The notes: a model not told the origin generated them from the sequence alone. Counted from the first letter of the stretch, positions 22,763 through 44,632 are shown. The stretch: DNA of 64,000 nt from an uncultured Desulfovibrionaceae bacterium (GCA_964440345.1 CAYTSA010000008.1:1830-65829), one strand, 5' to 3'. Program-made: numbers and translations.

Positions 22763-23884
22763 CTATTCCGGCGAACCGTACTCATACATGGAAAAATCGT
22801 ACGCTATCTTCCCATGGGCCAGCTGGCATGCTCTCAGCTCCCGGTCCGCAAGCCTGAGCACGCCGCCTTTTTCCAAGGGCGCCAACATATCGCGGAAGAA
22901 CGGCGCGTCCTCTCCATCCGGGGCCTTCTGGCCGCGTTCTTGCGCCCACAGTTCCGGGAGGTCCTCGCGCAGCAGGGCCAACATGGTCGGATGCGGACGC
23001 AACGTCGCATCAACAATGTAGGGCAATGCGCGCACAACTGACTGCGGCGCCCGGCCAGAAGCAGCGGCCCAGGCGGCTAGGTCATGCACGGCGTTCACCA
23101 CGTAGAGAATTTCCATGTAGATGAAAACAAAGCGCTGCTGCTCTATATGCCGGGTGATGCGCTCATAAGCCTGGGGCGTAAAAAAAGCCGCGGCCACCTC
23201 CCACAAGGATGCGCCGCCGGCTATGTGTTGCTTCACCTGGGCTTCGAACCAGGTCCAGGTTTTGCGGGCAATGGCCCTGCGGGAAAGCTGGCGCACCTGG
23301 GTCGCCAGTGCGCCCGGCTCCACCGCCAGCACATACCCGTGCTCCCGCAGCTTGCGGCAAAAAAAGTGGTCTTCGTGGATGCGGCCATTGTGCCCGGCAA
23401 ACCCTTTTACGGAGTCCCAGGCCTCTTTGCGCAGCAGCCACGCCCCGCCGGTAAGAAACTCCACTGTCTCAGCAGCGCCGATGTTGTGTGCGTCGCCGTA
23501 AATTTTCCAATACTGCGAGGCGAAATCCGCTGTTTCTTGCTGGCGTAGAGGACTCGAAACCAGCGTAGCGCCGGTTGCCTCCATTTGTTTTTCGCACAGA
23601 GCCGCCCAGTCTGGCGTCAACCGGATGTCGCAGTCCAGCGACAGGACATACGGCGCCTGGGCCGCCTCTATGCCTCTGGACTTGGTAAACGTGGTACCCC
23701 TGTTCCGGTCATTGCGCAGCACTGTCACGCCGTCAACGCCTACAGGGGGCGCATACGTCTTCTCTGAGCCGTCGTCCACGACGATGATGCTCCCTGGCTG
23801 CAGCGTCCATTCGGCAACACTGCGCAAAAGCCCGTCCACAAGAAAAGCGTCGTTATACGTATATGTAGCTAGTGCATACTGCAT
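22763..23884 (-). CDS. Glycosyltransferase family 2 with an extra C-terminal domain
   Basis: 373 aa from ATG 23884 (MQYALATYTYND). GT-A signatures VVDDGS and DCD (DXD). The last ~140 aa match no family I recognise. The ORF track extends to 23995. Confidence 0.8.
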   Translation of the reverse strand: MQYALATYTYNDAFLVDGLLRSVAEWTLQPGSIIVVDDGSEKTYAPPVGVDGVTVLRNDRNRGTTFTKSRGIEAAQAPYVLSLDCDIRLTPDWAALCEKQMEATGATLVSSPLRQQETADFASQYWKIYGDAHNIGAAETVEFLTGGAWLLRKEAWDSVKGFAGHNGRIHEDHFFCRKLREHGYVLAVEPGALATQVRQLSRRAIARKTWTWFEAQVKQHIAGGASLWEVAAAFFTPQAYERITRHIEQQRFVFIYMEILYVVNAVHDLAAWAAASGRAPQSVVRALPYIVDATLRPHPTMLALLREDLPELWAQERGQKAPDGEDAPFFRDMLAPLEKGGVLRLADRELRACQLAHGKIAYDFSMYEYGSPE

Positions 23885-24173
23885 GTAGCGGATTCCTCTA
23901 GTATGATTACAAGGCCGGCAATGCAGGCAGCAGGGCGAGCGCCTCTGCAAAGTTTCTGGCTCAGTGCACAGAGGCCTTGAATGTCTTTTTTGCATACACT
24001 ATGGCTGCAAAAAACGCCAAACGGCAGTATTCCCCCTGCTGGCGATTGAACAGGACGGGGCGTTGGACGCCAAACGTTCTTTCACCTCAGTGTTTCCTCC
24101 GTAGGCTTTCACCTGATCCACCACCAAAAAACAAAGCGCCTCAAAGAGGCCTGCTGCGGGGGAAGGGACGCGA

Positions 24174-24231
24174 GCGTCAAGCGCAATGGAGCGTCAAGCG
24201 CAATGGAGCGTCAAGCGCAATGGAGCGTCAG
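24174..24231. repeat. Tandem repeat, 17-bp unit GCGTCAAGCGCAATGGA x 3.4
   Basis: Three perfect contiguous units (24174-24190, 24191-24207, 24208-24224) plus a partial fourth. Located in the 626-bp divergent region between GT2 (minus) and the wzz operon (plus). Confidence 0.95.
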
Positions 24232-24294
24232 GCCTGGCGGTGGATTTAGGGCTGTTTTCCAGATTGTTATTCACCCCGTTTCAATGTAGTAGGC

Positions 24295-24472: not shown

Positions 24473-24510
24473 TAGTTTTCATTTCATTTCGTGTTTTTTA
24501 CGGCGACAAC

Positions 24511-25929
24511 ATGGAACTACTTATACTATTCGATATTATCTGGAGGCGTCTCTGGCTTTTCCTTCTGGTGTTCTGCAGTTTTTTTGCTGTGGTTGCCGTG
24601 GGCTCCTTTGTCGCCACCCCAGTCTATAAGGCCAAGACTGTTATTCTGCTCCAAAGCTCCGACGCTTTCAGCAACTTGATGGGCGTATTGAATATTCGTC
24701 AGCAAGGACAAAGCCGCCAGGCGGAAAAACCATTTGCCAAGGACGCAGTTCTGGCTACAGCACGGCCCGTAGCCGACCAGGTCATAGATCAGCTTGGCCT
24801 GAAGAACAAAGACGATGAGCGGCTGGACGCTGATGATTTTACTGACACGGGGCTGCTCAACGTGTTCAAAGCCGGCCCTTTTGTAGAAGCGGAACTGGAT
24901 GACGACGCTGACGACCTGCTGGGGCTCGTCTGTTCGTCTCCTGACCCCGAATTCGCCGCCAGAATATGCAACGCCATGGGCGACGCCTTTCTCCGCTACC
25001 GGGGACGGCTGATGCTGCAGGACTACAAAAAGGCTTCGGAGTACGTGGCCCAGCGCATAGACCAGGTTCGTGTACAATACTATCAGGCCCAGGCGGCTCT
25101 GGTTGCTTATCAGCGTGAACACTCCGCCGTAGACCTGAACTTTGAATCACAAGGGCTTATCACCAAGGTACAAAACGCCAAAACCGCCGTGCGGGAGAAC
25201 GAGACTGTCATCGCCAACATGGAGGCGGAGGCCCGTTCTGCGCGCCAAGACCTGGCCATCGTCAACAAGTTCCGTGACGAAACCATAGACTTGCGAAAAA
25301 GCGAGAACCTGAACGAACTTGTAAGCAAGCTAAATGACTTATTCGTCAGCTTGACAGCGCGGCGCGTTGAACTCACAGAGTCGCACCCGGACATTTTACA
25401 GTTAAAAGAACAGATCAACCAAGTCAAAGAGCTGATAGGCGACAACACAGGACTGACAAAGGAAGGCGTTCGCCAAGCCATAAATCCCTTGCACGACTTT
25501 TTGCAAGAACGGCTGGCGACATTGCGCATGAACCTGCGCGGAGCTTTGGCAAAGAGGGAAGCGCTGGCAGCCTCAGTTGACCTGGCCATGGCGGAACTCA
25601 TTGAGATGCCCCAAAAAGTTGCAGACAGCTCAAAACTATCGCAAACGTCTTCCATGTACCGGGAACTGTACGAAAGCTTGATGGAACATCAAGCCCGGCT
25701 GAAGCTCATTGAGCAGAGCCCTCTGTCTGACGGGGCTGTTGTTGAAGCAGCCGCGCCCCCTGAAGACCAAAGTTTTCCGGACAAGAAATTGAATTTTATC
25801 TTGGGCTTTATCCTGGCAATATTTTTCGCCCTGGCGGCAGTGTTGTTTGTGGAATATATAGCAGTGGCCCGCCAGGAGCAACAACGCAAAAACGCCTCCC
25901 CTGCCGGCACAGAAACAGCCCAGCCATGA
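24511..25929 (+). CDS. Polysaccharide co-polymerase / chain-length determinant (Wzz/GumC-type, no kinase domain)
   Basis: 472 aa. N- and C-terminal TM helices flank a long coiled-coil periplasmic region. Wzz-type N-terminus (FVATPVYKAKTVILLQ). Confidence 0.8.
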   Translation: MELLILFDIIWRRLWLFLLVFCSFFAVVAVGSFVATPVYKAKTVILLQSSDAFSNLMGVLNIRQQGQSRQAEKPFAKDAVLATARPVADQVIDQLGLKNKDDERLDADDFTDTGLLNVFKAGPFVEAELDDDADDLLGLVCSSPDPEFAARICNAMGDAFLRYRGRLMLQDYKKASEYVAQRIDQVRVQYYQAQAALVAYQREHSAVDLNFESQGLITKVQNAKTAVRENETVIANMEAEARSARQDLAIVNKFRDETIDLRKSENLNELVSKLNDLFVSLTARRVELTESHPDILQLKEQINQVKELIGDNTGLTKEGVRQAINPLHDFLQERLATLRMNLRGALAKREALAASVDLAMAELIEMPQKVADSSKLSQTSSMYRELYESLMEHQARLKLIEQSPLSDGAVVEAAAPPEDQSFPDKKLNFILGFILAIFFALAAVLFVEYIAVARQEQQRKNASPAGTETAQP

Positions 25930-27269
25930 AGCAACATCTATTCCACGTACTTGAGAACCTCGATTTCAAGGAGCTTTTCCGGGGCGCCGCCGCCGGCTTC
26001 GCCGTGCGCATTGTGGGCACGGCGTGCGGATACCTGCTTACCCTGGCCATTACGCGCATCTACGGCGTGGAGGTCATGGGCCAATACGCCTTTGCCATGT
26101 CCGTGCTCATGATCGTCAGCCTGCCGGCAGTGCTGGGCTTCGACTCCTCCCTGGTTAAGTTCGTCTCCCAGGCTGTGGCCAAGGGCCGTAGCGGCGAGGC
26201 CCGGACGATATACCGCATGGGTTTGCTGGCGGTGTTGCCCACAGCCGCCGCCGTAGCCTTGGCTCTTTGGCTGTGGGGCTGCACTTTGCTGGGAGGGCGG
26301 CTGAGCCCGGAAGCGGTGTTGTGGCTGGCCGCCATCATGACGCCCTACGCCTTGTACAAGGTGAACGCCGCCTGGTTGCAAGGAATGAAAAAGATGGCCA
26401 AGCAGTCCGCCCTGTACAACACCACGCCACAACTTTTTGCCTTGCTGCTGCTGTGGCCTGCGGCGCAGGCAGGTTTTGGGGGCATGTCCCCCCTGGCGGC
26501 CATGGGCGGCTCCCTGCTGCTGTCCGCAGTCCTGAGCGAATGGTGGCGGCGGCAATCACTCATGGAGATGGACGCGCCAAAGTCTGTGGATATTTCCATG
26601 CGCGGCGTGCTCAGCCAGTCCCTCTCCATGATGCTGGCTGGCTCGTTGCTGTTCATGTTCGGCTGGATCGACCTGTTCATGATAGGTCTTATGAACGACA
26701 AGGAAAGCGTGGGCCTCTACAACGTGGCGCTCAAGTTGGCCATGCTCATCAATTTCACCATGGTTTCGGTAAGCGCCATTGCCGCCCCAAAATTTGCGGA
26801 ACTAAGCCAGGACAGGGACAATACTCGATTCGCCGTGCTTGTCCGGCGGGCTTCCAAGCTCATCTTTATGTCAGCGTTTCCGGTGTTTCTGGTCCTGACC
26901 ATTTTTTCCGGCTTCGCCCTCAGCATCTTCGGGCCGGAATTCCGGGCCGCCCAGCCCGTCCTCATCGTCCTGTGTTGCGGCCAGTTGGTCAATATCTGCT
27001 GCGGATCAGTCGGCGCACTGTTACGCATGACCGGCCATCACGTCATATTCCAGAACATACTCATCGCCGCCACCTTGCTGAACATCGTGCTGAATCTGAT
27101 ACTCATCCCCATACTGGGCGAGCTGGGAGCAGCCATTGCCAGCGCCGCCGGATACGCCTGCTGGAACCTGCTTTCCGTGGGGTTTGCAAGACGCTTCTAC
27201 GGCTTCTATACAATCTATTTGCCTGGGTTGGAAAGAATATTTGGCAATATACGGCCAAATAAGATATGA
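25926..27269 (+). CDS. Wzx-type oligosaccharide flippase (MOP superfamily polysaccharide biosynthesis protein)
   Basis: 447 aa with about 12-14 predicted TM helices. ATGA overlap with the upstream gene. Confidence 0.8.
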   Translation: MKQHLFHVLENLDFKELFRGAAAGFAVRIVGTACGYLLTLAITRIYGVEVMGQYAFAMSVLMIVSLPAVLGFDSSLVKFVSQAVAKGRSGEARTIYRMGLLAVLPTAAAVALALWLWGCTLLGGRLSPEAVLWLAAIMTPYALYKVNAAWLQGMKKMAKQSALYNTTPQLFALLLLWPAAQAGFGGMSPLAAMGGSLLLSAVLSEWWRRQSLMEMDAPKSVDISMRGVLSQSLSMMLAGSLLFMFGWIDLFMIGLMNDKESVGLYNVALKLAMLINFTMVSVSAIAAPKFAELSQDRDNTRFAVLVRRASKLIFMSAFPVFLVLTIFSGFALSIFGPEFRAAQPVLIVLCCGQLVNICCGSVGALLRMTGHHVIFQNILIAATLLNIVLNLILIPILGELGAAIASAAGYACWNLLSVGFARRFYGFYTIYLPGLERIFGNIRPNKI

Positions 27270-27338: not shown

Positions 27339-28958
27339 ATGACACAGAAAATTGCCATCATCGGCTTTGACGGAGCCACCTTCGACGTTATTACGCCACT
27401 GGCCAAACGCGGCCTCATGCCCAACTTTAAGCGATTTATGGAAGAGGGGGCCCACGGCCCCCTTGTTTCCACATTGCCCCCTCTTAGCCCAGTGGCCTGG
27501 ACTTCCATGATAACCGGAGTCAATCCAGCCAAACATGGCGTTTTTGACTTCATCGTGACCAAACGCCATGAGAACGAGCGGCGCATCCACTTCAACAGCG
27601 GCGGCGACCGCAAGATTGCCCCCATCTGGAGCCATATTGGCGAATACAAAATGAAATCCGTGGCGCTGAACGTTCCCATGACTTACCCGCCGGACAAGAT
27701 TCCCGGCGTGATCGTCTCCGGCATGGACGCGCCAAGCGTGGATTCCGACTTTGTCCACCCGCCAGAGGCCAAGGAAAAGCTGCTACAGGCAGCTCCTGAA
27801 TACGTCATTGAAATGCACATGGACCGCCGCTACCTGAAACGCCAGGACCTTTACCTGAAAGACCTCTTCGCCTCTGAAGAAGCCAAACTGAAAGCCAGCC
27901 TGCACTTTGCAAACACCGAAGACTGGTCTTTCTACATGACAGTGTTCACCGGTCTGGACCGTACGCAACACATGTTCATGGACGTTTTCGACTTTACAGC
28001 GCCAGCGCAGGAACTGGCCAAGAACCCCGTGCTGGCTACATACATGAAAATGGACGAATACCTCGGCCGGCTGATGGAGCAGCTGGGCGACGGCATCAAC
28101 GTGCTGGTGGTTTCAGACCACGGTTTCGGTCCTGTCCGCAACTTATTCTCCTTGAACAAATGGCTCATCCAGAACGGCTACATGAAGCTGGCCAAAGAGC
28201 AGGACCGGCAGAAAAAGTTTTTACAGGACAACATGGGCAAAATACGCCGCAAAATACAACGCATGCTTTCCCCGGGCGGACCGGTTGAGTCAAGCATGTT
28301 CGGCGAGCTGGAAGGACGCTCCGTCTTGCGCAACGTAGACTGGGAGAACACCCAGGCTTTCAGCTTTGGCTCCGCGCCGTCCATCTATATCAACCGCGAG
28401 GCAGTGCCAGACCCCGCCGAGCGCGTCCGGCTCATCGAGCGGATGACGACGGGGCTGCGACAAATCAAGGATCCAATGACCGGCGAATACATCTTCCGCC
28501 AAGTAGAGCCCGCGGACACAGCCTATGAGGGCCCGCTTCTTGAGCAAGGACCGGACATTGTGGCTGAGCACGCTGCAGGCTGGCAATATGAACAGATGAT
28601 GCTTTTCGGGTCTGAGCGGGTAAGCGGCCAGGGCGACCCCATCTCCCGCCAGCCTGGCTCCTCTGGCAATCACGTGCGCGAAGGAATACTGTTGGCAAAA
28701 GGTCCGCTCGTAAAACAGGGCGCCCTGCTCACTGCCAATATCATGGACATAGCCCCCACCGCCTACTACTGTCTGGGCATGGAAATTCCCGGCAACCTGG
28801 ACGGCAAGCTGCTTACCGAAATGCTGGACCCGGCCAGACTGCAGTCTGCCCCGCCGGCATACGGTCCGGACCTGCCCATAAGCGGCCAGGAGGGCGACTA
28901 TTCCGACAGCGAGAAACAGGCCATTGAGGAACGCCTGAAGAACCTGGGCTACATGTAA
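27339..28958 (+). CDS. Alkaline phosphatase superfamily protein (type I phosphodiesterase / nucleotide pyrophosphatase family), soluble
   Basis: 539 aa. IAIIGFDGATFDV metal-ligand motif. Nucleophile region TLPPLSPVAWTSMITG. VVSDHGF metal-ligand motif. No TM segment or signal peptide seen. Confidence 0.75.
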   Translation: MTQKIAIIGFDGATFDVITPLAKRGLMPNFKRFMEEGAHGPLVSTLPPLSPVAWTSMITGVNPAKHGVFDFIVTKRHENERRIHFNSGGDRKIAPIWSHIGEYKMKSVALNVPMTYPPDKIPGVIVSGMDAPSVDSDFVHPPEAKEKLLQAAPEYVIEMHMDRRYLKRQDLYLKDLFASEEAKLKASLHFANTEDWSFYMTVFTGLDRTQHMFMDVFDFTAPAQELAKNPVLATYMKMDEYLGRLMEQLGDGINVLVVSDHGFGPVRNLFSLNKWLIQNGYMKLAKEQDRQKKFLQDNMGKIRRKIQRMLSPGGPVESSMFGELEGRSVLRNVDWENTQAFSFGSAPSIYINREAVPDPAERVRLIERMTTGLRQIKDPMTGEYIFRQVEPADTAYEGPLLEQGPDIVAEHAAGWQYEQMMLFGSERVSGQGDPISRQPGSSGNHVREGILLAKGPLVKQGALLTANIMDIAPTAYYCLGMEIPGNLDGKLLTEMLDPARLQSAPPAYGPDLPISGQEGDYSDSEKQAIEERLKNLGYM

Positions 28959-37661: not shown

Positions 37662-38453
37662 ATGTTCAGGACACATACTTTATTGACGACAATCCTCCGG
37701 CTTATGACGGCGTTATTTCTGGCCGTTGCATTGCTCGCTTGTGCTGTGTCGTGCTCCCGCACTCAATACCCGGCTGTTGACTACGCCGACGCGCCAGCTC
37801 CAGACCAGGGACCACTGGTGCTTGGTCCGGGCGACGAGGTGCGCATCAGCGTATGGCGCCACGACGACATGAGCCACAGCCCTACTCTGGACATGACCGG
37901 CCGTATCTATCTGCCGCTGGTTGGCGAGATCAAAGCCGGCGGCATGACCCCGGACGACCTGCGGGAGCATGTCGCCACGAAACTCTCCGCCTATGTGAAA
38001 AACCCCCATGTCACGGTCAGCGTGTCCAGCGTGAGCAGCATGCGGGTGCACGTGCTGGGGGAAGTGGAAAACCCCGGGACAATAGCCATGAAACGCCGGC
38101 TGACACTGTGGGACGCTTTGGCCAGCGTCGGCGGGTTGAACACTTACGCAAACGAAGAGCGCGTGCTGCTCATCCGCCATGATGCTGAAAAAGCCCAGGT
38201 TATGGCCCTGAGCGCCAGCCTGCCGGATGCACCGGACGGCGACATGCCGTCCACCCGCTTCTGGCTGCAAAACAACGACATCATCTACGTAACCCCAACC
38301 AGATTGGGAGAGGTAGAGCGGTTTATGACTAAGCTCAACGCTTCCATGGCGCCCTTTCTCACCGTCGGTCGCGCCACGCTGCTGTATCCGGACATAAAAT
38401 CCATCATCGAAACTGGTGAGAGGTCTACTGAAGCCAGCATCATTGTTGACTGA
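37662..38453 (+). CDS. Wza-type outer-membrane polysaccharide export lipoprotein (Poly_export + SLBB)
   Basis: 263 aa from ATG 37662. Lipobox LLAC. LGPGDEVRISVW...IYLPLVGEIKAGGMTPDDL matches the polysaccharide-export signature. Confidence 0.85.
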   Translation: MFRTHTLLTTILRLMTALFLAVALLACAVSCSRTQYPAVDYADAPAPDQGPLVLGPGDEVRISVWRHDDMSHSPTLDMTGRIYLPLVGEIKAGGMTPDDLREHVATKLSAYVKNPHVTVSVSSVSSMRVHVLGEVENPGTIAMKRRLTLWDALASVGGLNTYANEERVLLIRHDAEKAQVMALSASLPDAPDGDMPSTRFWLQNNDIIYVTPTRLGEVERFMTKLNASMAPFLTVGRATLLYPDIKSIIETGERSTEASIIVD

Positions 38454-39961: not shown

Positions 39962-40773
39962 ACGCGGCAGAGGGCCGGCTGCAATGCTCCGTTATTGTTC
40001 CGGCGTACAACGCCGCGGCCACGCTGGACTTGTGCCTGCGTTCCCTGACCTGCCAGACCTTTTGTCGTTCGGCGTATGAAATCATTGTCGTGGACGACGG
40101 CTCCGCGGACAACACCGCGGCCATAGCCGAAAACCACGACGTCCGGCTCGTCCAGCAGCCCAATAGGGGCCCGGCTGCAGCCCGCAACCGCGGCGCCCAG
40201 GAAGCCCGGGGCGAGATCATCGTCTTCACGGACGCAGACTGCGAGGCGGAAAAAGATTTTCTGGAAAAACTGCTGGCCCCCTTTGCAGACCCGGGAGTGA
40301 GCGGCGCGCAAGGGGCTTATCTGACCCGGCAAACTTCACTGACCGCCCGTTTCGCCCAGGTGGAGTTTGAGGACCGCTACGCGCTCATGGCCAGGTATGA
40401 CTCCATAGACCTGGCCGCCACCTACGCTGCGGCTTTTCGCCGGGAGCTGTTCCTGGCCATGTCTGGCTTTGACGCGTCCTTTCCCGTGGCTAACAACGAA
40501 GACACCGAGTTCTCCTACCGGCTGTGCAACGCCGGCTGCACACTGGTTTTTGCGCCAGACGCGTACGTCTACCATCAGCACCCGGAGACCCTGCGCCGCT
40601 ACCTGCGCACCAAGTACTGGCGCGCCTACTGGCGCATGGTGGTATACCGCAAATACCCGGAAAAAGCGGTCAGGGACCGCTACACCTCCACGCCAGTCAA
40701 GCTCCAGACCATGTTCATGCTGCTTTTGGCCGCCGACCCTGCTGGCAGCCTTGTTTTTGTGGATAGCCACTGA
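39958..40773 (+). CDS. Glycosyltransferase family 2, probably frameshifted near its 3' end
   Basis: MNAAEGRLQCSVIVPAYN, VVDDGS, DAD (DXD). ATGA overlap with the upstream radical SAM gene. After about codon 258 the expected membrane-anchoring C-terminus continues in the +1 frame (ORF 40469-40963). Confidence 0.75.
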   Translation: MNAAEGRLQCSVIVPAYNAAATLDLCLRSLTCQTFCRSAYEIIVVDDGSADNTAAIAENHDVRLVQQPNRGPAAARNRGAQEARGEIIVFTDADCEAEKDFLEKLLAPFADPGVSGAQGAYLTRQTSLTARFAQVEFEDRYALMARYDSIDLAATYAAAFRRELFLAMSGFDASFPVANNEDTEFSYRLCNAGCTLVFAPDAYVYHQHPETLRRYLRTKYWRAYWRMVVYRKYPEKAVRDRYTSTPVKLQTMFMLLLAADPAGSLVFVDSH

Positions 40774-40928
40774 AGTATCGGGATACGCGCTCATCCGCAG
40801 AGCCTGGAAACAGTCCAAGATGCTGGGCCTGGCTGCGCCGGACATCATCCTGCTGCGCGGGCTCGTCTTTGCCGCCGGCTCGCTGCACGGACTGGCGGCC
40901 TGTGTGCTGGGCATAACCGAGGGCGCTC

Positions 40929-41035
40929 GCGCATTTTCGCGTAGAGACAACGCTCGCTCCTGAAACAATGTATACTTGTTTCAGGAAAATGCATAAGAGC
41001 ATCTAAACATTTCAATGGTAAAATGCTCTAAAATG
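40929..41035 (+). repeat. Repeat family B copy 1 (MITE/REP-like, about 107 bp)
   Basis: Shares gcgcattttcgcg..gagacaacgctcgctcctg...gtttcagg...ctctaaa with 52851-52958 and 56534-56606. 9-bp termini gcgcatttt / aaaatgcgc. Perfect 9-bp hairpin cctgaaaca / tgtttcagg. Confidence 0.8.
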
Positions 41036-41061
41036 CGCCCAGTGACGGCCTTAGGCCAGGC

Positions 41062-42300
41062 TCAATCCACGCAGGAATCCTGCTCTCTGGCTTTTTTGTA
41101 TTCCAGATAGAAATCAAGAATGTGCGGCGGGCAACCCGGTATGAACTTGCCCACACGGCCGTACTGCCGGTAGTCGTGCACCAACTCCGCGGCGCAGTTG
41201 CCAAAGCACCACAGCTGGCCCTCTTTCTGGCGCAGGTTTTGCCGGTCTGGCATGGGCTTGCCCACGTATACGTTTTCCACAGCGCGGTCAGCAAAAAGCC
41301 CTTCAATGTGCAGTTTGTCCAGAGCGTGGCGCAGGGCGGAAAGGCAGCCAAAACAAGCGCCCCCCTCGACAACACGCACCTGGGGATACGCAGCGATGGA
41401 ACTGATGACCGGCCGGCGAAACGGCCGGCGAACCTCTTCTATGCCTGCCCCGCTCACCTGAATCTCACCCTCCGCCATGGCCCCCAGTCCTTCAGCGTGA
41501 GCCATGCGCAGCATGGTCACCTCAAACGGGTCCACAGACATAACCCGGGCCGCTGTCCCGTCCACCGCCAGCACGTCCCTGCCGGCAATGATGGTGTTCA
41601 TATCGTCCACCACCGCCCCGGAAAGCGGCGCCTGCCCCTGCACGGCCATTATACCGTCCAGTATAGTCAGGTCCGGCTTGACCACCCGCAGTATGTCCAC
41701 CAGCTTGATGTTAATGTCATTTCGATGGAAGGACATCCGGTCCTCGTCCAGAATGAGCCCATACTGGTTCTTCACGCCCAGGGTCAGCAGGGTGTGCATG
41801 TGCGTCTTCATCTTGGGCAGGTTGATGTACACGTCTGCGTCTACCAGGCACTTGGGCACGGTGACCGGGTCGTAGAGCACGGCATTGGGATTCTTCAGGG
41901 CAACCCGAGGCTCGCCGTCAAAAAAGCGTATGGTCGCGCCGGCGGCCTCAAGCCGCTCCCGAACCTGTTCGGTCTGGGCCAAAGCCTTTTTCAGGGGCAG
42001 GCCCCAGCCCGGGTTGTCGCCTATCCAGACCTTTTGGGCGCCAGCGTCGCGCAGCAGCTGCACCAGGGCGATAATCACCCGCTCGTCGGTAACGATGGCG
42101 TAAGGGTTGTGCGCGCTGGGCCGTACGTAGTTGGGCTTAATAAGCACGGTCATGCCGCTCACCAGCCGTTGCAGGTCCACAGCCAACGCCACAGCGTCCG
42201 CCATCAGGTTGCGGATGACAGAAAGTGACTTTTCCGAGTATTCGCCGGGTTTTTCCGGCACGCGCCCGGCCTTTAACAGGCCGACGACAGCTTTTTCCAC
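41062..42300 (-). CDS. DUF362 domain protein (no ferredoxin domain; Cys-rich C-terminus)
   Basis: 412 aa. Shares LIKPNYV, INLPKMKTHM and LDGIMAVQGQAPLSG blocks with the protein at 36188-37567. C-terminal cysteines GGACFGC...CFGNC...GCPPH. Confidence 0.8.
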   Translation of the reverse strand: MEKAVVGLLKAGRVPEKPGEYSEKSLSVIRNLMADAVALAVDLQRLVSGMTVLIKPNYVRPSAHNPYAIVTDERVIIALVQLLRDAGAQKVWIGDNPGWGLPLKKALAQTEQVRERLEAAGATIRFFDGEPRVALKNPNAVLYDPVTVPKCLVDADVYINLPKMKTHMHTLLTLGVKNQYGLILDEDRMSFHRNDINIKLVDILRVVKPDLTILDGIMAVQGQAPLSGAVVDDMNTIIAGRDVLAVDGTAARVMSVDPFEVTMLRMAHAEGLGAMAEGEIQVSGAGIEEVRRPFRRPVISSIAAYPQVRVVEGGACFGCLSALRHALDKLHIEGLFADRAVENVYVGKPMPDRQNLRQKEGQLWCFGNCAAELVHDYRQYGRVGKFIPGCPPHILDFYLEYKKAREQDSCVD

Positions 42301-43862
42301 GCTACTTTACCTCCAGGCGTTCTTGGCAACTCGTCAATAATTTCCACAAGACGCGGAGTCCTGTAGCGGTGCAGCCGGCGGCTGCACCATTTGCGGATAT
42401 CCGCCGCCGTCAATTGGCGTCCCTCTTTTGCCACCACAAAGGCTTTGGGAATCTCACCATGCAAGGCGTCGTCGTTTTTTACCACCGCCGCCTCGGCCAC
42501 GTCTGGATGGGCGCGGATCACATTTTCGATTTCTATGGGATAGACCTTTATGCCGCCCACCTTCATCATGCCGGAAATGCGGCACTTAAAGTAAAAAAAT
42601 CCGTCCTCGCCCTGACACATCACATCGCCGGTGTGGAACCAGCCTTGCGCGTCCGTAACCGGAACCAGTTCTCCGTGGCCTGTCAGATAGTTATGGCACA
42701 CGGCCGGTCCGCGGATGAGCAGCTCGCCCACCTGGCCGGGGTCGGCCTCCTGGCCGCTTTCGTTTGTGATAATGGCTTGATAACCCGGGCAGGGCCGGCC
42801 CACCGAGCCCGGCGGCGCCTCCAGATCGCGGGGGTTGTTGTCCTTCATGCGGTTGGTCAAGGCAACGCCGGCTGTTTCTGTGGAGCCCCAGACGGCTTGG
42901 ATGGGCAAGCCGAACCGTTCGGCAAAGGCCTGGCGCAAGGCGGGTGTTACATGCATGCCGCCGCTCTCCGGCGCCCGCAAGCTGGAGAAGTCCCAGCCTG
43001 TTAAGGAAGGCAAACGAACGAGCGTTTCGTATATGGACGCCACCGCCATCAGCGTGGTCACCTTGTGTTCATGCAGAGCCTTGGCGATGGTCTTTGGCCG
43101 CACGCCATCCAGCAACACAGCCGTTCCGCCCAGAAAGATTGGCCGGGCGTAGATTTCATGCGGGTGCACAAAGGCTGGAAACATACACAGGTGAACGTCT
43201 TCTTCCGTGAACCCAAAGGCGCGGACTGCAGCGATGGTGTTGGCGTCCATGTTGGCGTGAGTGGTCACCGCCGCCTTGGGCCTACCAGTGGTGCCGGATG
43301 TGTAGTTCAGGTACGCTGGATCGTCCGGAATGATGGCCGGCATGGCGGCTGGCCGGCTCATATAGGTTTCATGCTCGGCGTAACTGCGGCGGCCTGCGCC
43401 CCCCATTGCCGCGCCCAGGAAAAAGGTGGCGGCCGGTTCCGGCGCGTCCTGGGCGTTTTGCAGCATGCCGGCCAGTTCGGCGGCGACAAACAAGGCCCGT
43501 GGCTGTGCCTGTTCCAGCACACTGTGCAGCGTTTCCCGCGGCATGTTGCAATCCAGGGGAAAAAACACTCCGCCGCACTCCATTATGGCCAGGTGGCAGA
43601 GCATGGCTTCAGGCGTTTTGGGCCCCAGGCAGCCCACCTTATCGCCCTTGCGCACCCCGGCGTCAGCCAGCATGGCGGCCAGGGCGGACGTACGCTCCTG
43701 CACCTCCTGGTACGATATGCGCACATCGTCATAGATAAAGGCTGCTTTGCCGGGAAAAACGTCCGCGCTGCGCCGCAGCCGTTCGCGAAACGTGCGAAAG
43801 TCTCCTGGAGCGGCATGCGCTGGCTCCGCCGCTATGTTGGTCTTGCCGGTAAAAGCGTACAT
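42273..43862 (-). CDS. AMP-dependent synthetase/ligase (acyl/aryl-CoA ligase superfamily)
   Basis: 529 aa. Core motifs YTSGTTGRPKA, GWFHTGD and PRTPGGKV. 28-nt overlap with the downstream DUF362 gene. Confidence 0.85.
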   Translation of the reverse strand: MYAFTGKTNIAAEPAHAAPGDFRTFRERLRRSADVFPGKAAFIYDDVRISYQEVQERTSALAAMLADAGVRKGDKVGCLGPKTPEAMLCHLAIMECGGVFFPLDCNMPRETLHSVLEQAQPRALFVAAELAGMLQNAQDAPEPAATFFLGAAMGGAGRRSYAEHETYMSRPAAMPAIIPDDPAYLNYTSGTTGRPKAAVTTHANMDANTIAAVRAFGFTEEDVHLCMFPAFVHPHEIYARPIFLGGTAVLLDGVRPKTIAKALHEHKVTTLMAVASIYETLVRLPSLTGWDFSSLRAPESGGMHVTPALRQAFAERFGLPIQAVWGSTETAGVALTNRMKDNNPRDLEAPPGSVGRPCPGYQAIITNESGQEADPGQVGELLIRGPAVCHNYLTGHGELVPVTDAQGWFHTGDVMCQGEDGFFYFKCRISGMMKVGGIKVYPIEIENVIRAHPDVAEAAVVKNDDALHGEIPKAFVVAKEGRQLTAADIRKWCSRRLHRYRTPRLVEIIDELPRTPGGKVAWKKLSSAC

Positions 43863-43867
43863 GGGAT

Positions 43868-44632
43868 CTATTGTTTTTTACTGCTCTTTACAACGCGGTT
43901 CTGACAACCTGTAAAGTGCAGCAGCAGCCTGGCCACAGTCCACATGGTGAGAGCCGCTGTCTTGGCCACAAGCTTGCCGTCATACCAAAAAGACTGATGT
44001 TCCAGATAGTGTTCATCATGTTCTATGTGGTCGCCAATGGGCAGCGTTCGGTGGGGGCTGAGCTGCCAGGGCCCGGTCACCCCCGGCGTCACGTTCAGCC
44101 GGCGGCGCTGGCGGGGAGAATACTGATCCACCAGAAACTGCATCTCCGGCCGCGGCCCGACCACGCTCATGTGGCCGCGCAGCACATTGTAAAACTGCGG
44201 CAACTCGTCCAAGCCTGTCCTTCGCAGCAGACGGCCCACCCGGGTAACCCTGGGGTCGCAGCTGTCATCTTTGGGCGTTGTCGCATATTTAGGGGCAGTG
44301 ATGAACATGGTTCTGAATTTGTACAGAGTGAAGAGCTTGCCGTTTTTTCCAACGCGTTTCTGAGAAAAAAATACCGGGCCCGGGCTTTCCAGCTTCACCG
44401 CCAGGGCAATAATTAGGCTCACAGGCGCAGAAAACACGATGATTGCGCTGGCAAAGCATAGGTCAAACAGCCTCTTTGCCCGCAGATAGCCCCTGGATTG
44501 ATTCGGAACGCCGCTTGTATTCCCCGCGTTGCAATTCTGGCCGCTGGTCCCGGCTTCGAGTGGCGCGGCCTCCTCGCAAGCCATTGCAGCCTGACGCGAC
44601 GAGGCATTATTCCTGTTTGTCATCTCCCCCAC
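43868..44632 (-). CDS. Polyprenyl-phosphate sugar-phosphate transferase (bacterial sugar transferase, small WbaP/EpsL type)
   Basis: 254 aa with one TM helix. Conserved SQKRVGKNGKLFTLYKFRTM and LRRTGLDELPQFYNVLRGHMSVVGPRP. Confidence 0.85.
   Translation of the reverse strand: MGEMTNRNNASSRQAAMACEEAAPLEAGTSGQNCNAGNTSGVPNQSRGYLRAKRLFDLCFASAIIVFSAPVSLIIALAVKLESPGPVFFSQKRVGKNGKLFTLYKFRTMFITAPKYATTPKDDSCDPRVTRVGRLLRRTGLDELPQFYNVLRGHMSVVGPRPEMQFLVDQYSPRQRRRLNVTPGVTGPWQLSPHRTLPIGDHIEHDEHYLEHQSFWYDGKLVAKTAALTMWTVARLLLHFTGCQNRVVKSSKKQ

What the first reader, a model, noticed from the sequence alone, without database searches (positions are those of the whole stretch)
22763..44632. 22-kb Wzx/Wzy polysaccharide locus with an atypical redox, acyl and sulfo tailoring set
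Seen in sequence: a complete Wz-type assembly line. It comprises a co-polymerase (24511), flippase (25926), Wzy-like polymerase (32801), Wza lipoprotein (37662) and priming sugar-phosphate transferase (43868). It also has two GT2s, one GT9 and a secreted clan-A glycosidase. Interleaved with these are genes that are not standard for such loci: two cobalamin-domain radical SAM enzymes; two DUF362 paralogues, one fused to a 2x[4Fe-4S] ferredoxin; an adenylate-forming ligase with no carrier protein anywhere in the locus; a PAPS-type sulfotransferase; a soluble alkaline-phosphatase-superfamily enzyme; and an LpxL-type acyltransferase. The locus forms five transcription units in alternating orientation, with many 4-nt start/stop overlaps inside units. 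Inference: the product is a heavily decorated glycan or glycolipid (sulfated, acylated, possibly radical-modified). The chemistry of at least five of these enzymes cannot be assigned by homology. This is the best candidate in the window for an undescribed pathway.
Basis: partly seen in the sequence, partly recalled or inferred. Interest (0 to 1): 0.75.

Follow-up and report, generated by a model that had tools for sequence, protein, structure and literature searches.

The report
Glycan locus with conserved radical-SAM module
This 22-kb surface-sugar gene cluster is real, and its odd "decorating" genes are not local extras: they form an unstudied gene module found in the same order in dozens of anaerobic bacteria from several phyla, probably making a sulfated, fatty-acylated sugar polymer or glycolipid by chemistry not yet described.

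Summary
The gene content is confirmed: 17 genes in five alternating units, with PGT, Wzx, Wzy_C, Wzz-like PCP, Wza lipoprotein, two GT2, one GT9, a PslG-like glycosidase, two B12-radical SAM enzymes, two DUF362 proteins, an acyl-CoA-type ligase, a sulfotransferase, an NPP-type AlkP enzyme and an LpxL-like acyltransferase.

The interpretation needs inverting. In 80 genomes anchored on the DUF362-ferredoxin gene, the conserved collinear unit is LpxL-like, GT9, DUF362-Fd, HpnJ-like rSAM, GT2. An rSAM2 orthologue is present in 49 loci and all five genes in 20, across Desulfobacterota, Nitrospirota and Planctomycetota. Wzx, Wza, Wzz and PGT are the variable part.

Sulfation is built in. The sulfotransferase is fused to DUF362-Fd in one genome and to the rSAM in another, and CysD/CysN genes sit in other loci. 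PGT, ligase and DUF362b form a separate conserved operon.

Both DUF362 proteins have a LarA (nickel-pincer racemase) fold, and the LarA cofactor-binding Lys and His residues align. rSAM2 is nearest to HpnJ and AprD4, which both act on sugars.

The most likely product is a sulfated, acylated, radical-modified surface glycoconjugate. I found no published description. One GT2 is frameshifted. I rate it a new variant of a known kind, interest about 0.6.

The parts
22763..23995 (-). GT2/GT21-type glycosyltransferase (GT2a). Peripheral: no orthologue in the 80 related loci.
   Evidence: Pfam Glycos_transf_2 9e-15 and Glyco_transf_21 1e-12; 0 of 80 loci.
24511..25929 (+). Wzz/PCP-type co-polymerase with two TM segments, a coiled-coil periplasmic part and no kinase domain.
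   Evidence: Pfam Wzz 7e-9 and GNVR 1e-4. NCBIfam XrtA chain-length determinant 86 bits, below the 279 cut-off. TM segments at 2-24 and 425-455.
25926..27269 (+). Wzx-type flippase (MOP superfamily). Its start overlaps the Wzz stop (ATGA).
   Evidence: Pfam MatE, Polysacc_synt and Polysacc_synt_3; at least 8 hydrophobic segments.
27339..28958 (+). Cytoplasmic NPP-type alkaline-phosphatase-superfamily enzyme. Recurrent in the module: 21 of 80 loci, often next to CysD/CysN.
   Evidence: Pfam Phosphodiest 4e-40. No TM segment or signal peptide; the ITGxxPxxHG and DHG metal/nucleophile motifs are visible in the sequence. Loci counts.
28961..29914 (+). LpxL/PatA-family acyltransferase. Part of the conserved module.
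   Evidence: Pfam Lip_A_acyltrans 1.5e-25. Best NCBIfam match is PIM acyltransferase, 77 bits, below cut-off. HFGSW motif. Present in 38 of 80 loci.
29911..31272 (+). B12-binding radical SAM enzyme no. 1 (BzaD/'ladderane-cluster' type; probable C-methyltransferase).
   Evidence: Pfam B12-binding and Radical_SAM. NCBIfam BzaD 264 bits and TIGR04072 222 bits, both below cut-off. CPLRCAYC motif. Orthologues in 21 of 80 loci, at 54% and 49% identity in the nearest relatives.
31285..32790 (+). Secreted PslG-like (GH39-like, clan GH-A) glycosidase. Usually paired with Wzy_C.
   Evidence: Signal peptide. Profile A4 against PDB matches PslG at 1e-17, then GH39 xylosidases; E267 (NEP) and E371 are invariant. 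Present upstream of the anchor in 13 of 49 evaluable loci.
32801..34279 (+). Wzy_C-family polymerase or ligase.
   Evidence: Pfam Wzy_C 1e-12; 8 or more TM segments; present in 14 of 80 loci, adjacent to the PslG-like gene.
34308..35480 (+). GT9 glycosyltransferase (heptosyltransferase-like). Part of the conserved module.
   Evidence: Pfam Glyco_transf_9 5e-29. Heptosyltransferase II 111 bits, below the 134.6 cut-off. Directly upstream of DUF362-Fd in 42 of 68 evaluable loci.
35622..36193 (-). PAPS-type sulfotransferase. Its start overlaps the DUF362-Fd stop codon (ATGA).
   Evidence: Pfam Sulfotransfer_1 2e-13; PRSGTS and R-x7-S motifs. 43% identical to the sulfotransferase halves of the fusion proteins P0045 (DUF362-Fd + ST) and P0315 (ST + rSAM2).
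36188..37528 (-). DUF362 (LarA-fold) domain fused to a 2x[4Fe-4S] ferredoxin. This was the anchor gene for the conserved module.
   Evidence: Pfam DUF362 2e-43 plus Fer4 families; eight invariant ferredoxin Cys. AF2 model pLDDT 88; the top Foldseek hits are all LarA/Mar2. H169/K179/H195 align with the LarA His174/Lys184/His200 equivalents.
37662..38453 (+). Short Wza/OPX lipoprotein (Poly_export + one SLBB).
   Evidence: Pfam Poly_export 2e-22 and SLBB. NCBIfam XrtA-type exporter 115 bits, below the 180 cut-off; EpsY 100 bits. LLAC lipobox.
38492..39961 (+). B12-binding radical SAM enzyme no. 2, HpnJ/AprD4-like. It is the most conserved partner of DUF362-Fd.
   Evidence: NCBIfam HpnJ 415 bits over the full length, below the 578 cut-off; next best is BchE at 169. 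Closest solved structure is AprD4, 1e-29. CPFRCSFC motif. More than 120 protein clusters at >=59% identity. Directly downstream of the anchor in 41 of 62 evaluable loci.
39958..40963 (+). GT2 glycosyltransferase (GT2b), orthologue of the module's GT2. Frameshifted near 40715-40725: the intact reading frame ends at 40773, and the C-terminal membrane part continues in another frame to 40963.
   Evidence: Pfam Glycos_transf_2 3e-36. 47-58% identical orthologues in 41-44 loci. Homologues L016 and L020 align across the frame change.
41062..42300 (-). Second DUF362 (LarA-fold) protein, with a C-terminal region holding four invariant Cys.
   Evidence: Pfam DUF362 2.5e-43. AF2 model pLDDT 89; the top 19 Foldseek hits are LarA family. 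H167, K177, H192 and C316/C319/C369/C390 are invariant.
42273..43862 (-). Adenylate-forming ligase of the fatty-acyl-CoA-ligase type. It overlaps DUF362b by 28 nt.
   Evidence: Pfam AMP-binding 2e-77 plus AMP-binding_C. NCBIfam long-chain-fatty-acid-CoA ligase 366 bits, below the 476 cut-off. The ligase/DUF362b pair, with a 25-28 nt overlap, is conserved in L090, L091 and L172.
43868..44632 (-). Small monotopic polyprenyl-phosphate glycosyl-1-phosphate transferase (PGT).
   Evidence: Pfam Bac_transf 2e-59; NCBIfam EPS_sugtrans 254 bits. The PGT-ligase-DUF362b operon recurs in L090 and L172 at 62%, 58% and 75% identity.

Best explanation
The locus is a composite of three pieces that this genome has brought together.

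(1) An ordinary Wzx/Wzy-dependent assembly and export set: PGT, Wzx, Wzy_C, a kinase-less PCP, a short OPX lipoprotein and a PslG-like periplasmic glycosidase.

(2) A widely conserved but uncharacterised module: LpxL/PatA-like acyltransferase, GT9, DUF362-ferredoxin (plus sulfotransferase), HpnJ/AprD4-like B12-radical SAM enzyme and GT2. It is accompanied by an NPP-type AlkP enzyme and a BzaD-like B12-radical SAM enzyme. Here the DUF362-Fd/sulfotransferase pair is inverted and wza is inserted next to it.

(3) A conserved PGT, acyl-CoA-type ligase and DUF362b operon.

Proposed working (inferred, not shown). A polyprenyl-phosphate-linked oligosaccharide is started by the PGT and extended by GT2a, GT2b and GT9 on the cytoplasmic face. 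The sugar added by GT2b is rebuilt by the HpnJ/AprD4-like radical SAM enzyme through ring contraction, dehydration or deoxygenation. The LarA-fold DUF362-Fd supplies or removes reducing equivalents, either by hydride transfer to a keto intermediate or by feeding electrons through its two [4Fe-4S] clusters. rSAM1 adds a C-methyl group. The sulfotransferase adds sulfate from PAPS. The ligase makes an acyl-CoA, possibly of an acid first processed by DUF362b, and the LpxL/PatA-like enzyme transfers it to a sugar hydroxyl. The unit is then flipped, polymerised or ligated, and exported.

The product is a sulfated, acylated, radical-modified surface glycan or glycolipid.
For: Shown by tool results:
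- Gene identities.
- Collinear conservation of the module in 80 genome loci from Desulfobacterota (including cable bacteria), Nitrospirota (including magnetotactic ones), Planctomycetota/Brocadiaceae, Schekmanbacteria and Nitrospinia.
- An rSAM2 orthologue lies directly downstream of DUF362-Fd in 41 of 62 evaluable loci, GT2b in 32 of 54, GT9 upstream in 42 of 68 and LpxL-like in 31 of 56. All five genes are present in 20 loci.
- Three further metagenome loci show the same theme.
- Gene fusions tie the sulfotransferase to both DUF362-Fd (P0045) and rSAM2 (P0315). In the window the DUF362-Fd stop overlaps the sulfotransferase start.
- Dedicated CysD/CysN sulfate-activation genes occur in 10 further loci; 16 of 80 loci have a sulfotransferase or CysD/N.
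- Other neighbours are glycan-decorating genes: GDP-mannose dehydratase, GT4, carbamoyltransferase and AlgX/GDSL. There are no lipid A, Kdo or hopanoid genes among them.
- rSAM2 is far closer to HpnJ (415 bits) than to any other named B12-rSAM family, and its closest solved relative is AprD4, a sugar diol-dehydratase.
- Both DUF362 proteins model confidently as LarA folds, with the cofactor-binding His/Lys/His positions aligned.
- The ligase/DUF362b pair with its 25-28 nt overlap recurs in four other genomes.
- The nearest relatives keep DUF362-Fd next to Wzy_C, Wzz-like, PslG-like, LpxL-like and rSAM1 genes.
Against: - No biochemical data exist for any module gene, so the order of reactions and the substrate are inference.
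- Fifteen of 80 DUF362-Fd loci show none of the window's other locus genes within 10 kb of the anchor (several are short contigs). These include Solidesulfovibrio genomes, where DUF362b is also an orphan.
- In D. inopinatus and in L033, DUF362-Fd, ligase and DUF362b form an operon with no glycosyltransferase nearby. The DUF362 proteins may therefore act on a small acid rather than on the glycan.
- The Desulfovibrionaceae closest to the window by DUF362-Fd identity lack an rSAM2/GT2b orthologue beside it.
- Only 25 of 80 loci have any wz-type gene within 10 kb.
- GT2b is frameshifted in this assembly, so the pathway may be broken here, or the assembly may be wrong.
- The sequence-level LarA alignment is weak (E 0.31), and the second catalytic His of LarA is missing.
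- No LarB/C/E genes are in the window.
Confidence: 0.5

Rival explanations
1. An LPS/LOS core and lipid A modification (waa-like) cluster. GT9 acts as a heptosyltransferase on Kdo-lipid A, the LpxL-like enzyme as a late lipid A acyltransferase, and the Wzy_C protein as a WaaL ligase. Wzx, Wzz and PGT supply an O-antigen. The redox and sulfo enzymes decorate the core.
For: The functions known to me for GT9 are LPS heptosylation and autotransporter heptosylation (own knowledge). The best NCBIfam matches are heptosyltransferases II and III (111 and 103 bits) and lipid A lauroyl acyltransferases. Pfam Wzy_C covers O-antigen ligases. LpxL-like, GT9 and Wzy_C travel together in many loci while Wzx and Wza do not.
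Against: All these matches are below the curated cut-offs. The top LpxL-family match is the PIM acyltransferase, not LpxL. No KdtA, LpxK, MsbA or ADP-heptose genes appear in the window or among the 25 most frequent Pfam families of 107 neighbouring genes in related loci. An OPX (Wza) and a PslG-like glycosidase point to a secreted polymer.
Confidence: 0.17
2. Adjacent but functionally separate systems. The wz genes, GTs, LpxL-like enzyme and sulfotransferase make an ordinary EPS. DUF362-Fd, the ligase and DUF362b belong to a small-molecule pathway, for example anaerobic conversion and CoA activation of a 2-hydroxy acid. This pathway merely sits nearby, or supplies only an acyl substituent.
For: DUF362-Fd, ligase and DUF362b form a self-contained operon in Desulfovibrio inopinatus and in L033, with no GT nearby. 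Both DUF362 genes are orphans in Solidesulfovibrio. LarA-superfamily enzymes act on 2-hydroxy acids (PMC11770544). Distant DUF362 relatives occur in many unrelated contexts.
Against: DUF362-Fd sits between GT9 and rSAM2/GT2 in the same order and on the same strand in about two thirds of evaluable loci across phyla. It is fused to, or translationally coupled with, the same sulfotransferase that is elsewhere fused to rSAM2. The PGT is co-operonic with the ligase and DUF362b in the window and in two relatives.
Confidence: 0.2
3. A hopanoid side-chain pathway. rSAM2 is an HpnJ that makes a bacteriohopanetetrol cyclitol ether from a glucosamine added by the adjacent GT2 (HpnI-like).
For: HpnJ is by far the best named match for rSAM2 (415 bits, full length). 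A GT2 lies immediately downstream, as hpnI lies near hpnJ (own knowledge; HpnI/K/J roles per PMC13459092).
Against: The score is below the HpnJ cut-off of 577.6. GT2b matches HpnI only at 20 bits against a cut-off of 310. No squalene-hopene cyclase, HpnH, HpnG or HpnK is in the window, and none appears among the 25 most frequent Pfam families of the related loci's neighbours. The constant partners are GT9, LpxL-like and DUF362-Fd, which are not hpn genes.
Confidence: 0.04
4. A decayed or misassembled locus with no coherent product. The GT2b frameshift and the rearranged gene order would reflect a degenerating region or a chimeric MAG contig.
For: GT2b is frameshifted. The DUF362-Fd/sulfotransferase segment is inverted relative to the canonical order. 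The sequence comes from an unnamed 74.7-kb NCBI contig.
Against: The other 16 genes are intact, full-length ORFs with tight start/stop overlaps. GC content is even across the locus at 0.53-0.61. A single frameshift is a common assembly error.
Confidence: 0.06

Closest known systems
Wzx/Wzy-dependent EPS/capsule loci with PCP and short OPX (e.g. Myxococcus EPS/EpsY type, Pseudomonas psl with PslG)
   Same: PGT, Wzx, Wzy_C, Wzz-domain PCP, Poly_export/SLBB lipoprotein and a PslG-like periplasmic glycosidase are all present.
   Different: There is no BY-kinase and no identified outer-membrane barrel partner. About half of the locus consists of Fe-S, B12, LarA-fold, sulfo and acyl enzymes that I do not know from characterised loci of this type (own knowledge). 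These enzymes, not the wz genes, are the conserved unit across genomes.
Synechan (xss) sulfated exopolysaccharide cluster of Synechocystis (PMC8205485)
   Same: It is a Wzx/Wzy-type EPS cluster that carries its own sulfotransferases (title and abstract; details from own knowledge).
   Different: As far as I know the xss cluster has no radical SAM, DUF362, LpxL-like or GT9 genes, and it belongs to an oxygenic phototroph. Homology between the two sets of sulfotransferases was not tested.
HpnI/HpnK/HpnJ: bacteriohopanetetrol cyclitol ether formation
   Same: A B12-domain radical SAM enzyme lies next to a GT2. HpnJ is proposed to contract a lipid-linked glucosamine ring (PMC13459092). rSAM2 matches the HpnJ model along its full length.
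   Different: The score is below the family cut-off. The GT2 is not HpnI-like. There is no deacetylase and there are no hopanoid genes. The genomic partners are different.
AprD4/AprD3: radical SAM sugar diol-dehydratase plus reductase in apramycin biosynthesis
   Same: AprD4 is the closest solved structure to rSAM2 (1e-29). The logic of a radical SAM enzyme acting on a glycoside followed by a dedicated reductase would fit the rSAM2 and DUF362-Fd pairing (inference).
   Different: As far as I recall AprD4 does not use cobalamin, and its partner AprD3 is an NAD(P)H-dependent dehydrogenase rather than a LarA-fold ferredoxin fusion (own knowledge). NCBIfam AprD4 scores 110 bits against a cut-off of 500.
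LarA superfamily (nickel-pincer-nucleotide 2-hydroxy-acid racemases/epimerases; Pfam clan CL0471)
   Same: Both DUF362 proteins model as LarA folds (Foldseek prob 1.0). The invariant H169/K179/H195 and R78 align with, or are spaced like, LarA1 His174/Lys184/His200 and Arg75.
   Different: Sequence identity is only 10-16%. The second catalytic His (His108) has no counterpart. Fe-S domains are appended (2x[4Fe-4S], or a four-Cys region), implying net redox chemistry rather than racemisation. NPN binding is untested.
Nod-factor decoration genes (NodC GT2, NodA acyltransferase, NodH sulfotransferase, NodP/NodQ sulfate activation, NodU carbamoyltransferase)
   Same: The logic is the same: a GT2-built oligosaccharide that is fatty-acylated, sulfated with cluster-encoded CysD/CysN paralogues, and carbamoylated in some loci (Nod functions from own knowledge).
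   Different: There is no orthology: NodC scores 52 bits against a cut-off of 550, and the acyltransferase family differs. Nod clusters have no radical SAM or DUF362 enzymes, and no polyprenyl-linked Wzx/Wzy route.
XrtA/PEP-CTERM exopolysaccharide loci
   Same: The best NCBIfam names for the PCP, OPX and Wzy_C proteins are the XrtA-associated families. Those loci also carry an acyl-CoA ligase (own knowledge).
   Different: All scores are far below cut-off. No exosortase gene is in the window.

Membership tests
Wzx/Wzy-dependent polysaccharide pathway | Initiating polyprenyl-phosphate glycosyl-1-phosphate transferase | tested here: met
   Bac_transf 2e-59; EPS_sugtrans 254 bits.
Wzx/Wzy-dependent polysaccharide pathway | Wzx (MOP) flippase | tested here: met
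   Polysacc_synt, Polysacc_synt_3 and MatE hits above the gathering scores; at least 8 TM segments.
Wzx/Wzy-dependent polysaccharide pathway | Wzy polymerase (as opposed to a WaaL/PglL-type ligase) | tested here: inconclusive
   The Wzy_C domain is present at 1e-12, but the Pfam family covers both polymerases and ligases. No second Wzy_C gene is in the window.
Wzx/Wzy-dependent polysaccharide pathway | PCP and OPX export pair | tested here: met
   Wzz+GNVR PCP and Poly_export+SLBB lipoprotein. No BY-kinase was found in the window.
HpnJ (TIGR03471) | Score at or above the curated cut-off (577.6 bits) | tested here: not met
   414.8 bits, full-length alignment.
HpnJ (TIGR03471) | Genomic association with squalene-hopene cyclase and hpnH/G/I/K | tested here: not met
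   None is in the window. None appears among the 25 most frequent Pfam families of the neighbours in related loci. GT2b scores 20 bits against HpnI, cut-off 310.
Class B (cobalamin-domain) radical SAM enzymes | N-terminal B12-binding domain plus a radical SAM core with CxxxCxxC | tested here: met
   Both proteins have PF02310 and PF04055. Motifs CPLRCAYC and CPFRCSFC. Cobalamin use itself cannot be tested here.
LarA superfamily (NPN-dependent) | LarA fold | tested here: met
   AF2 models have pLDDT 88 and 89. All top Foldseek PDB hits are LarA/Mar2/LarAH, prob 1.0, E down to 8e-8. Same Pfam clan (PMC11770544).
LarA superfamily (NPN-dependent) | NPN-binding Lys184, His200 and Arg75, and catalytic His108 and His174 (LarA1 numbering) | tested here: inconclusive
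   H169, K179 and H195 align with the Mar2 residues H171, K181 and H197 in an ungapped stretch, but at E 0.31. They are invariant in 41 sequences, and their counterparts are invariant in DUF362b. No counterpart of His108 exists. Residue roles are from PMC11770544.
LarA superfamily (NPN-dependent) | LarB/LarC/LarE cofactor-synthesis genes in the genome | not testable with these tools
   None is in the 64-kb window. The rest of the genome is not available.
LPS core (waa) / lipid A late acylation | Heptosyltransferase and LpxL/LpxM at curated cut-offs | tested here: not met
   Heptosyltransferase II scores 110.9 against 134.6. LpxL/LpxP subfamily scores 41 against 297.8. The best match is PIM acyltransferase at 76.7 against 209.
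LPS core (waa) / lipid A late acylation | Neighbouring Kdo transferase, LpxK, MsbA or ADP-heptose genes | tested here: not met
   Absent from the window and from the 25 most frequent Pfam families of 107 neighbours.
XrtA/PEP-CTERM EPS locus | Exosortase gene and XrtA-type PCP/OPX at cut-off | tested here: not met
   No exosortase is in the window. TIGR03007 scores 86 against 279 and TIGR03027 scores 115 against 180.
PAPS-dependent sulfotransferases (PF00685) | Domain match plus the 5'-PSB loop and 3'-PB motif | tested here: met
   Sulfotransfer_1 scores 50.7 bits against a cut-off of 22. PRSGTS and R106-x7-S114 are present. Donor specificity was not tested.

The most novel reading that the evidence does not exclude
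DUF362 (PF04015) proteins are nickel-pincer-type (LarA-like) hydride-transfer enzymes wired to ferredoxin-type Fe-S clusters. With an HpnJ/AprD4-like cobalamin radical SAM enzyme and a GT2, they form a previously unrecognised, phylum-spanning pathway. This pathway converts a lipid-linked hexose into a carbocyclic (cyclitol-type) or deoxygenated sugar, which is then sulfated and acylated. The result would be a conserved envelope glycolipid or glycan of strictly anaerobic Desulfobacterota, Nitrospirota and Planctomycetota, including cable bacteria, magnetotactic Nitrospirota and anammox relatives.
Probability: 0.15. Interest if true: 0.85.

Novelty: new variant of a known kind. Interest (0 to 1): 0.62.

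Why it matters
- **A context for DUF362.** DUF362 is a large family with no assigned function. The only functional remark I found in the searched library is its use as an outgroup for LarA. This work gives it a reproducible genomic context (GT9, HpnJ-like rSAM, GT2, sulfotransferase), two gene fusions, and a testable cofactor hypothesis based on the aligned LarA Lys and His residues.
- **A second setting for HpnJ-type chemistry.** The HpnJ mechanism has not been studied (PMC13459092). This module places HpnJ/AprD4-type sugar radical chemistry outside hopanoids and aminoglycosides.
- **Environmental reach.** The module occurs in environmentally important, mostly uncultured anaerobes: sulfate reducers, cable bacteria, magnetotactic Nitrospirota and anammox relatives. 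A conserved sulfated, acylated surface glycoconjugate in these organisms would bear on envelope biology, biofilm matrix, sulfur budgets and possibly lipid or glycan biomarkers.
- **Genome annotation.** 'Tailoring' genes inside an EPS locus can be the conserved core of the system, with the wz machinery as the interchangeable part.

Tried and rejected
- Exact look-up of the window's own proteins for their source contig: not on record, or unnamed. The organism is inferred only from best hits: Desulfovibrionaceae-like MAGs at 58-62% identity and Syntrophobacteraceae at 56%.
- Rfam scan of the window: nothing found.
- Metagenome scan with the DUF362b alignment: this returned almost only distant (25-41%) DUF362 relatives in unrelated contexts. 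Only L092 kept the ligase. It gave little beyond showing that the broad family is context-diverse.
- Sequence search of PDB with the DUF362-Fd profile: only ferredoxin-domain hits. LarA was reached only with a trimmed profile at E 0.31 and by fold search.
- PDB sequence search with the AlkP enzyme: no hit, so its substrate remains open.
- Promoter and terminator scans: no more hits than in shuffled sequence, so they were not used to define operons.
- Literature searches for DUF362/PF04015, Npun_F2552, and combinations of radical SAM, heptosyltransferase, sulfotransferase and EPS: no description of this module. Some DUF362 hits were really DUF3623/DUF3627.
- Hopanoid, LPS-core, XrtA and RiPP readings were considered and rejected on cut-offs and neighbourhood.
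- The + strand ORF 35511-36242 was rejected as the shadow of the minus-strand sulfotransferase.

Full report
**1. The observation**

The window is about 59% GC, with no compositional break across 22.7-44.7 kb.

The five units are:
- GT2a on the minus strand.
- Wzz, Wzx, AlkP, LpxL-like, rSAM1, secreted 501-aa protein, Wzy_C and GT9 on the plus strand.
- DUF362-Fd and sulfotransferase on the minus strand.
- Wza, rSAM2 and GT2b on the plus strand.
- PGT, ligase and DUF362b on the minus strand.

Start/stop overlaps of the ATGA/GTGA type are present at Wzz/Wzx, LpxL/rSAM1, rSAM2/GT2b and DUF362-Fd/sulfotransferase. The ligase and DUF362b overlap by 28 nt.

- The long plus-strand ORF 35511-36242 is a shadow ORF. 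The real gene there is a 190-aa minus-strand sulfotransferase (Sulfotransfer_1 2e-13, a PRSGTS loop and R-x7-S).
- The 501-aa secreted protein, aligned with 13 relatives, matches PslG and GH39 enzymes in the PDB (1e-17). The NEP and nucleophile glutamates are invariant. The 'clan-A glycosidase' call is therefore right.

Other checks:
- Wza has an LLAC lipobox.
- No ACP-like ORF fits in the only sizeable gap.
- GT2b is frameshifted near 40715-40725, and homologues continue in another frame to 40963.
- The rest of the window is housekeeping, signalling and an efflux system. It holds no exosortase, lipid A, hopanoid or LarB/C/E genes.

**2. What is conserved elsewhere**

I used the DUF362-ferredoxin protein as anchor because it sits mid-locus and is one of the atypical genes. 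It belongs to a tight family: hundreds of proteins at 50% identity or more, with eight invariant ferredoxin cysteines.

A scan of one genome per species returned 80 loci with up to 10 kb of flank on each side. They come from:
- Desulfobacterota, including Electrothrix and Electronema;
- Nitrospirota, including magnetotactic lineages;
- Planctomycetota/Brocadiaceae;
- Schekmanbacteria;
- Nitrospinia;
- a few others.

I assigned every ORF in these loci to its best match among the window's proteins.

| Window gene | Loci with an orthologue (of 80) |
|---|---|
| GT9 | 54 |
| rSAM2-like | 53 (49 at >=45% identity) |
| GT2b | 44 |
| LpxL-like | 38 |
| AlkP | 21 |
| rSAM1 | 21 |
| PslG-like | 14 |
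| Wzy_C | 14 |
| Sulfotransferase | 6 |
| Wzz | 5 |
| Ligase | 4 |
| Wza | 3 |
| Wzx | 2 (plus 10 divergent flippases) |
| DUF362b | 2 |
| PGT | 1 |
| GT2a | 0 |

The order is strikingly constant and on one strand: [B12-rSAM paralogues, rSAM1] [PslG-like, Wzy_C] [AlkP] LpxL-like, GT9, DUF362-Fd, rSAM2, GT2b.

Counting only loci with enough flank:
- rSAM2 lies directly downstream of the anchor in 41 of 62;
- GT2b in 32 of 54;
- GT9 directly upstream in 42 of 68;
- LpxL-like in 31 of 56.

All five genes are present in 20 loci. Metagenome contigs show the same pattern.

The window has the canonical order, except that the DUF362-Fd/sulfotransferase pair is inverted and wza is inserted beside it.

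Only 25 of 80 loci have any wz-type gene within 10 kb. The linkage is not absent, however. The nearest relatives (L003/L008, L005/L009, L024) keep DUF362-Fd next to Wzy_C, a Wzz-like gene, the PslG-like gene, LpxL-like genes and the rSAM1 orthologue.

**3. Sulfation is part of the module**

- One metagenomic protein (P0045) is a DUF362-Fd/sulfotransferase fusion. Another (P0315) is a sulfotransferase/rSAM2 fusion. Both sulfotransferase halves are 43% identical to the window's enzyme.
- In L012, L045 and L047 the sulfotransferase follows DUF362-Fd, as it does in the window. In the window the two genes share an ATGA overlap.
- Ten other loci carry CysD-like and/or CysN-like sulfate-activation genes a few kb downstream, next to a second AlkP-family gene.

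Other recurrent neighbours are:
- a cytoplasmic molybdopterin oxidoreductase directly after GT2b (15-20 loci);
- GDP-mannose 4,6-dehydratase;
- GT4;
- carbamoyltransferase;
- AlgX/GDSL;
- SAM methyltransferases;
- a SPASM radical SAM enzyme.

This set is typical of sugar-nucleotide supply and glycan decoration. It is not typical of lipid A/Kdo or hopanoid synthesis.

**4. The third piece**

DUF362b is only 21% identical to DUF362-Fd. It defines a smaller family of about 100 clusters at 40% identity or more.
- In the two closest relatives (72-75% identity), PGT, ligase and DUF362b form the same three-gene operon but stand alone among housekeeping genes. These relatives are the same MAG or sample as L008 and L006, which carry the DUF362-Fd cluster on another contig.
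- In Desulfovibrio inopinatus and in L033 the operon is DUF362-Fd, ligase, DUF362b, with no glycosyltransferase nearby.
- In L092 only the ligase stays beside DUF362b.
- The 25-28 nt ligase/DUF362b overlap is conserved in L090, L091, L172 and the window.
- In Solidesulfovibrio both DUF362 genes are orphans.

The two DUF362 proteins and the ligase are thus linked to each other at least as firmly as to the glycan genes. This is the main reason for keeping a 'separate small-molecule pathway' rival.

**5. What the enzymes look like**

*rSAM2.* It matches the HpnJ model over its full length at 415 bits. The next named family, BchE, scores 169. The HpnJ score is still under the 578-bit cut-off. Its closest solved relative is AprD4, a radical SAM diol-dehydratase acting on an aminoglycoside sugar (1e-29). 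HpnJ is proposed to contract the glucosamine ring of a GT2-made hopanoid glycoside, and its mechanism is unexplored (PMC13459092). Both relatives act on glycosides, and rSAM2 is followed by a GT2. I therefore infer a sugar substrate.

*rSAM1.* It is nearest to BzaD, a C-methylase (own knowledge), and to TIGR04072. Both scores are below cut-off.

*The DUF362 proteins.* Both give confident AF2 models (pLDDT 88 and 89). The top PDB fold matches for both are exclusively LarA-family nickel-pincer racemases (prob 1.0, E down to 8e-8). This agrees with their shared Pfam clan (PMC11770544).

A trimmed DUF362 profile aligns, without gaps, the invariant H169, K179 and H195 with H171, K181 and H197 of malate racemase Mar2. 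By spacing and offset, these correspond to LarA1 His174 (catalytic), Lys184 (cofactor tether) and His200 (nickel ligand). The invariant R78 is placed like Arg75 (residue roles from PMC11770544). DUF362b keeps H167, K177 and H192.

Two cautions apply. The alignment is weak statistically (E 0.31), and LarA's second catalytic histidine has no counterpart. Cofactor use is therefore a lead, not a finding.

Each paralogue adds an Fe-S-type region: 2x[4Fe-4S] in one, four invariant Cys in the other. This suggests net electron transfer rather than racemisation.

*The ligase.* It is closest to long-chain fatty-acid-CoA ligases (366 bits).

*The LpxL-family protein.* It is closest to the PIM acyltransferase model PRK07920. 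The mycobacterial PIM acyltransferase PatA uses acyl-CoA (own knowledge). This removes the 'missing carrier protein' problem.

*The AlkP enzyme.* It has intact NPP-type metal and nucleophile motifs. It has no close solved relative, and its role is open.

**6. Most likely mechanism, and its status**

Shown:
- the gene identities;
- the module's cross-phylum collinearity;
- the fusions and translational coupling that link sulfotransferase, DUF362-Fd and rSAM2;
- the conserved ligase/DUF362b pair;
- the LarA fold.

Inferred:
- a polyprenyl-linked oligosaccharide is primed by the PGT and built by GT2a, GT2b and GT9;
- one sugar is remodelled by rSAM2, with DUF362-Fd as redox partner;
- rSAM1 adds a C-methyl group;
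- the sulfotransferase adds sulfate;
- the LpxL/PatA-like enzyme adds an acyl group, using acyl-CoA from the ligase;
- the unit is flipped by Wzx, polymerised or ligated by the Wzy_C protein, trimmed by the PslG-like enzyme, and exported through PCP/OPX.

I put about 0.5 on this overall picture. I put less, about 0.3, on the specific rSAM2/DUF362-Fd pairing chemistry.

Rivals:
- an LPS core/lipid A cluster (0.17), weakened by sub-threshold scores and by the lack of Kdo, lipid A or heptose genes;
- functionally separate neighbours, with the DUF362/ligase set acting on a small acid (0.2);
- a hopanoid side-chain pathway (0.04);
- a decayed or misassembled locus (0.06).

**7. Comparison with known systems, and novelty**

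The locus meets the tests for a Wzx/Wzy-type pathway, except that polymerase and ligase cannot be told apart. It fails the membership tests for HpnJ, LPS-core and XrtA loci (see the membership table).

In logic it resembles three sulfated, acylated glycoconjugate systems:
- Nod-factor decoration (own knowledge);
- mycobacterial sulfolipid-1 (own knowledge);
- the sulfated EPS synechan (PMC8205485).

None of these contains B12-radical SAM or DUF362 enzymes as far as I know.

Full-text searches found no description of the module and no function for DUF362. The library lacks most subscription papers, so this is not proof of absence.

I class the finding as a new variant of a known kind. It is a glycoconjugate biosynthesis locus whose conserved core is an undescribed redox, radical and sulfo module.

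**8. Verdict**

Interest is 0.62: it is not an overturning result, but it is a concrete, widely distributed and experimentally tractable entry point to DUF362 function and to HpnJ-type sugar radical chemistry.

Noticed in passing
window 40715-40963: GT2b is frameshifted. Orthologues from L016 and L020 align to frame 1 up to about 40719 and then to another frame from 40718 to 40924. The predicted C-terminal membrane segment is therefore cut off. This is either an assembly error or a pseudogene.
   Followed up: partly
window 20967-22637 (-): A 556-aa protein with a lipoprotein-like signal (VTAC) and Asp-box-like repeats (e.g. GPDGTVWF, NDDGSVLAAW). It has no Pfam or NCBIfam hit and lies directly beside GT2a. 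It has no counterpart in the 80 related loci, so whether it belongs to the locus is unknown.
   Followed up: partly
L011, L021, L034, L038, L048, L053, L056, L057, L060, L068, L070, L071, L073-L075, L079, L083 (directly after the GT2b orthologue): A cytoplasmic molybdopterin oxidoreductase of about 700 aa (Fe4S4 + Molybdopterin + Molydop_binding, with no obvious Tat signal in the representative read) follows the module's GT2 in 15-20 loci. It is absent from the window, and its role in a glycan cluster is unexplained.
   Followed up: partly
L034, L038, L056, L057, L059, L068, L071, L073, L075, L083 (about 7-8 kb downstream of the anchor): CysD-like (PAPS_reduct) and CysN-like (EF-Tu-type GTPase) genes, next to a second AlkP-family gene. 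These loci lack a recognisable PF00685 sulfotransferase. This raises the question of which enzyme uses the activated sulfate there.
   Followed up: partly
L035/L088 1-7100; also L050, L054, L056, L020: Up to five tandem B12-binding radical SAM paralogues lie upstream of the module in some genomes. This suggests multiple or iterative radical modifications.
   Followed up: no
L091 (Desulfovibrio inopinatus) 7186-13626: The DUF362-Fd, ligase and DUF362b operon is followed by a chorismate-mutase/DAHP-synthase fusion and a DHQ synthase. This may be a chance neighbour, or a hint at the acid substrate.
   Followed up: no
window 44816-51109 (-): An RsbW-like anti-sigma kinase, then a MacB-type permease, an ABC ATPase, a HlyD-family adaptor with an N-terminal PAS domain, and an OEP outer-membrane factor. 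Together these form a tripartite efflux set directly after the PGT. No link to the glycan locus was tested.
   Followed up: no
window 10101-14069 (-): A 1322-aa protein combining pentapeptide repeats with class-I adenylate cyclase domains, followed by an HD-domain protein (14072-15376).
   Followed up: no
window 15473-18248 (-): A polyamine-type gene run: an agmatine-deiminase-like PAD_porph protein, a deoxyhypusine-synthase-like protein and a pyruvoyl-dependent arginine decarboxylase.
   Followed up: no
L003 19414-21293 (-): An Aas-like fusion (AMP-binding + PP-binding + PlsC-type acyltransferase) lies at the edge of the closest relative's cluster. This is a different solution to acyl activation and transfer from the window's separate ligase and LpxL-like pair.
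   Followed up: no
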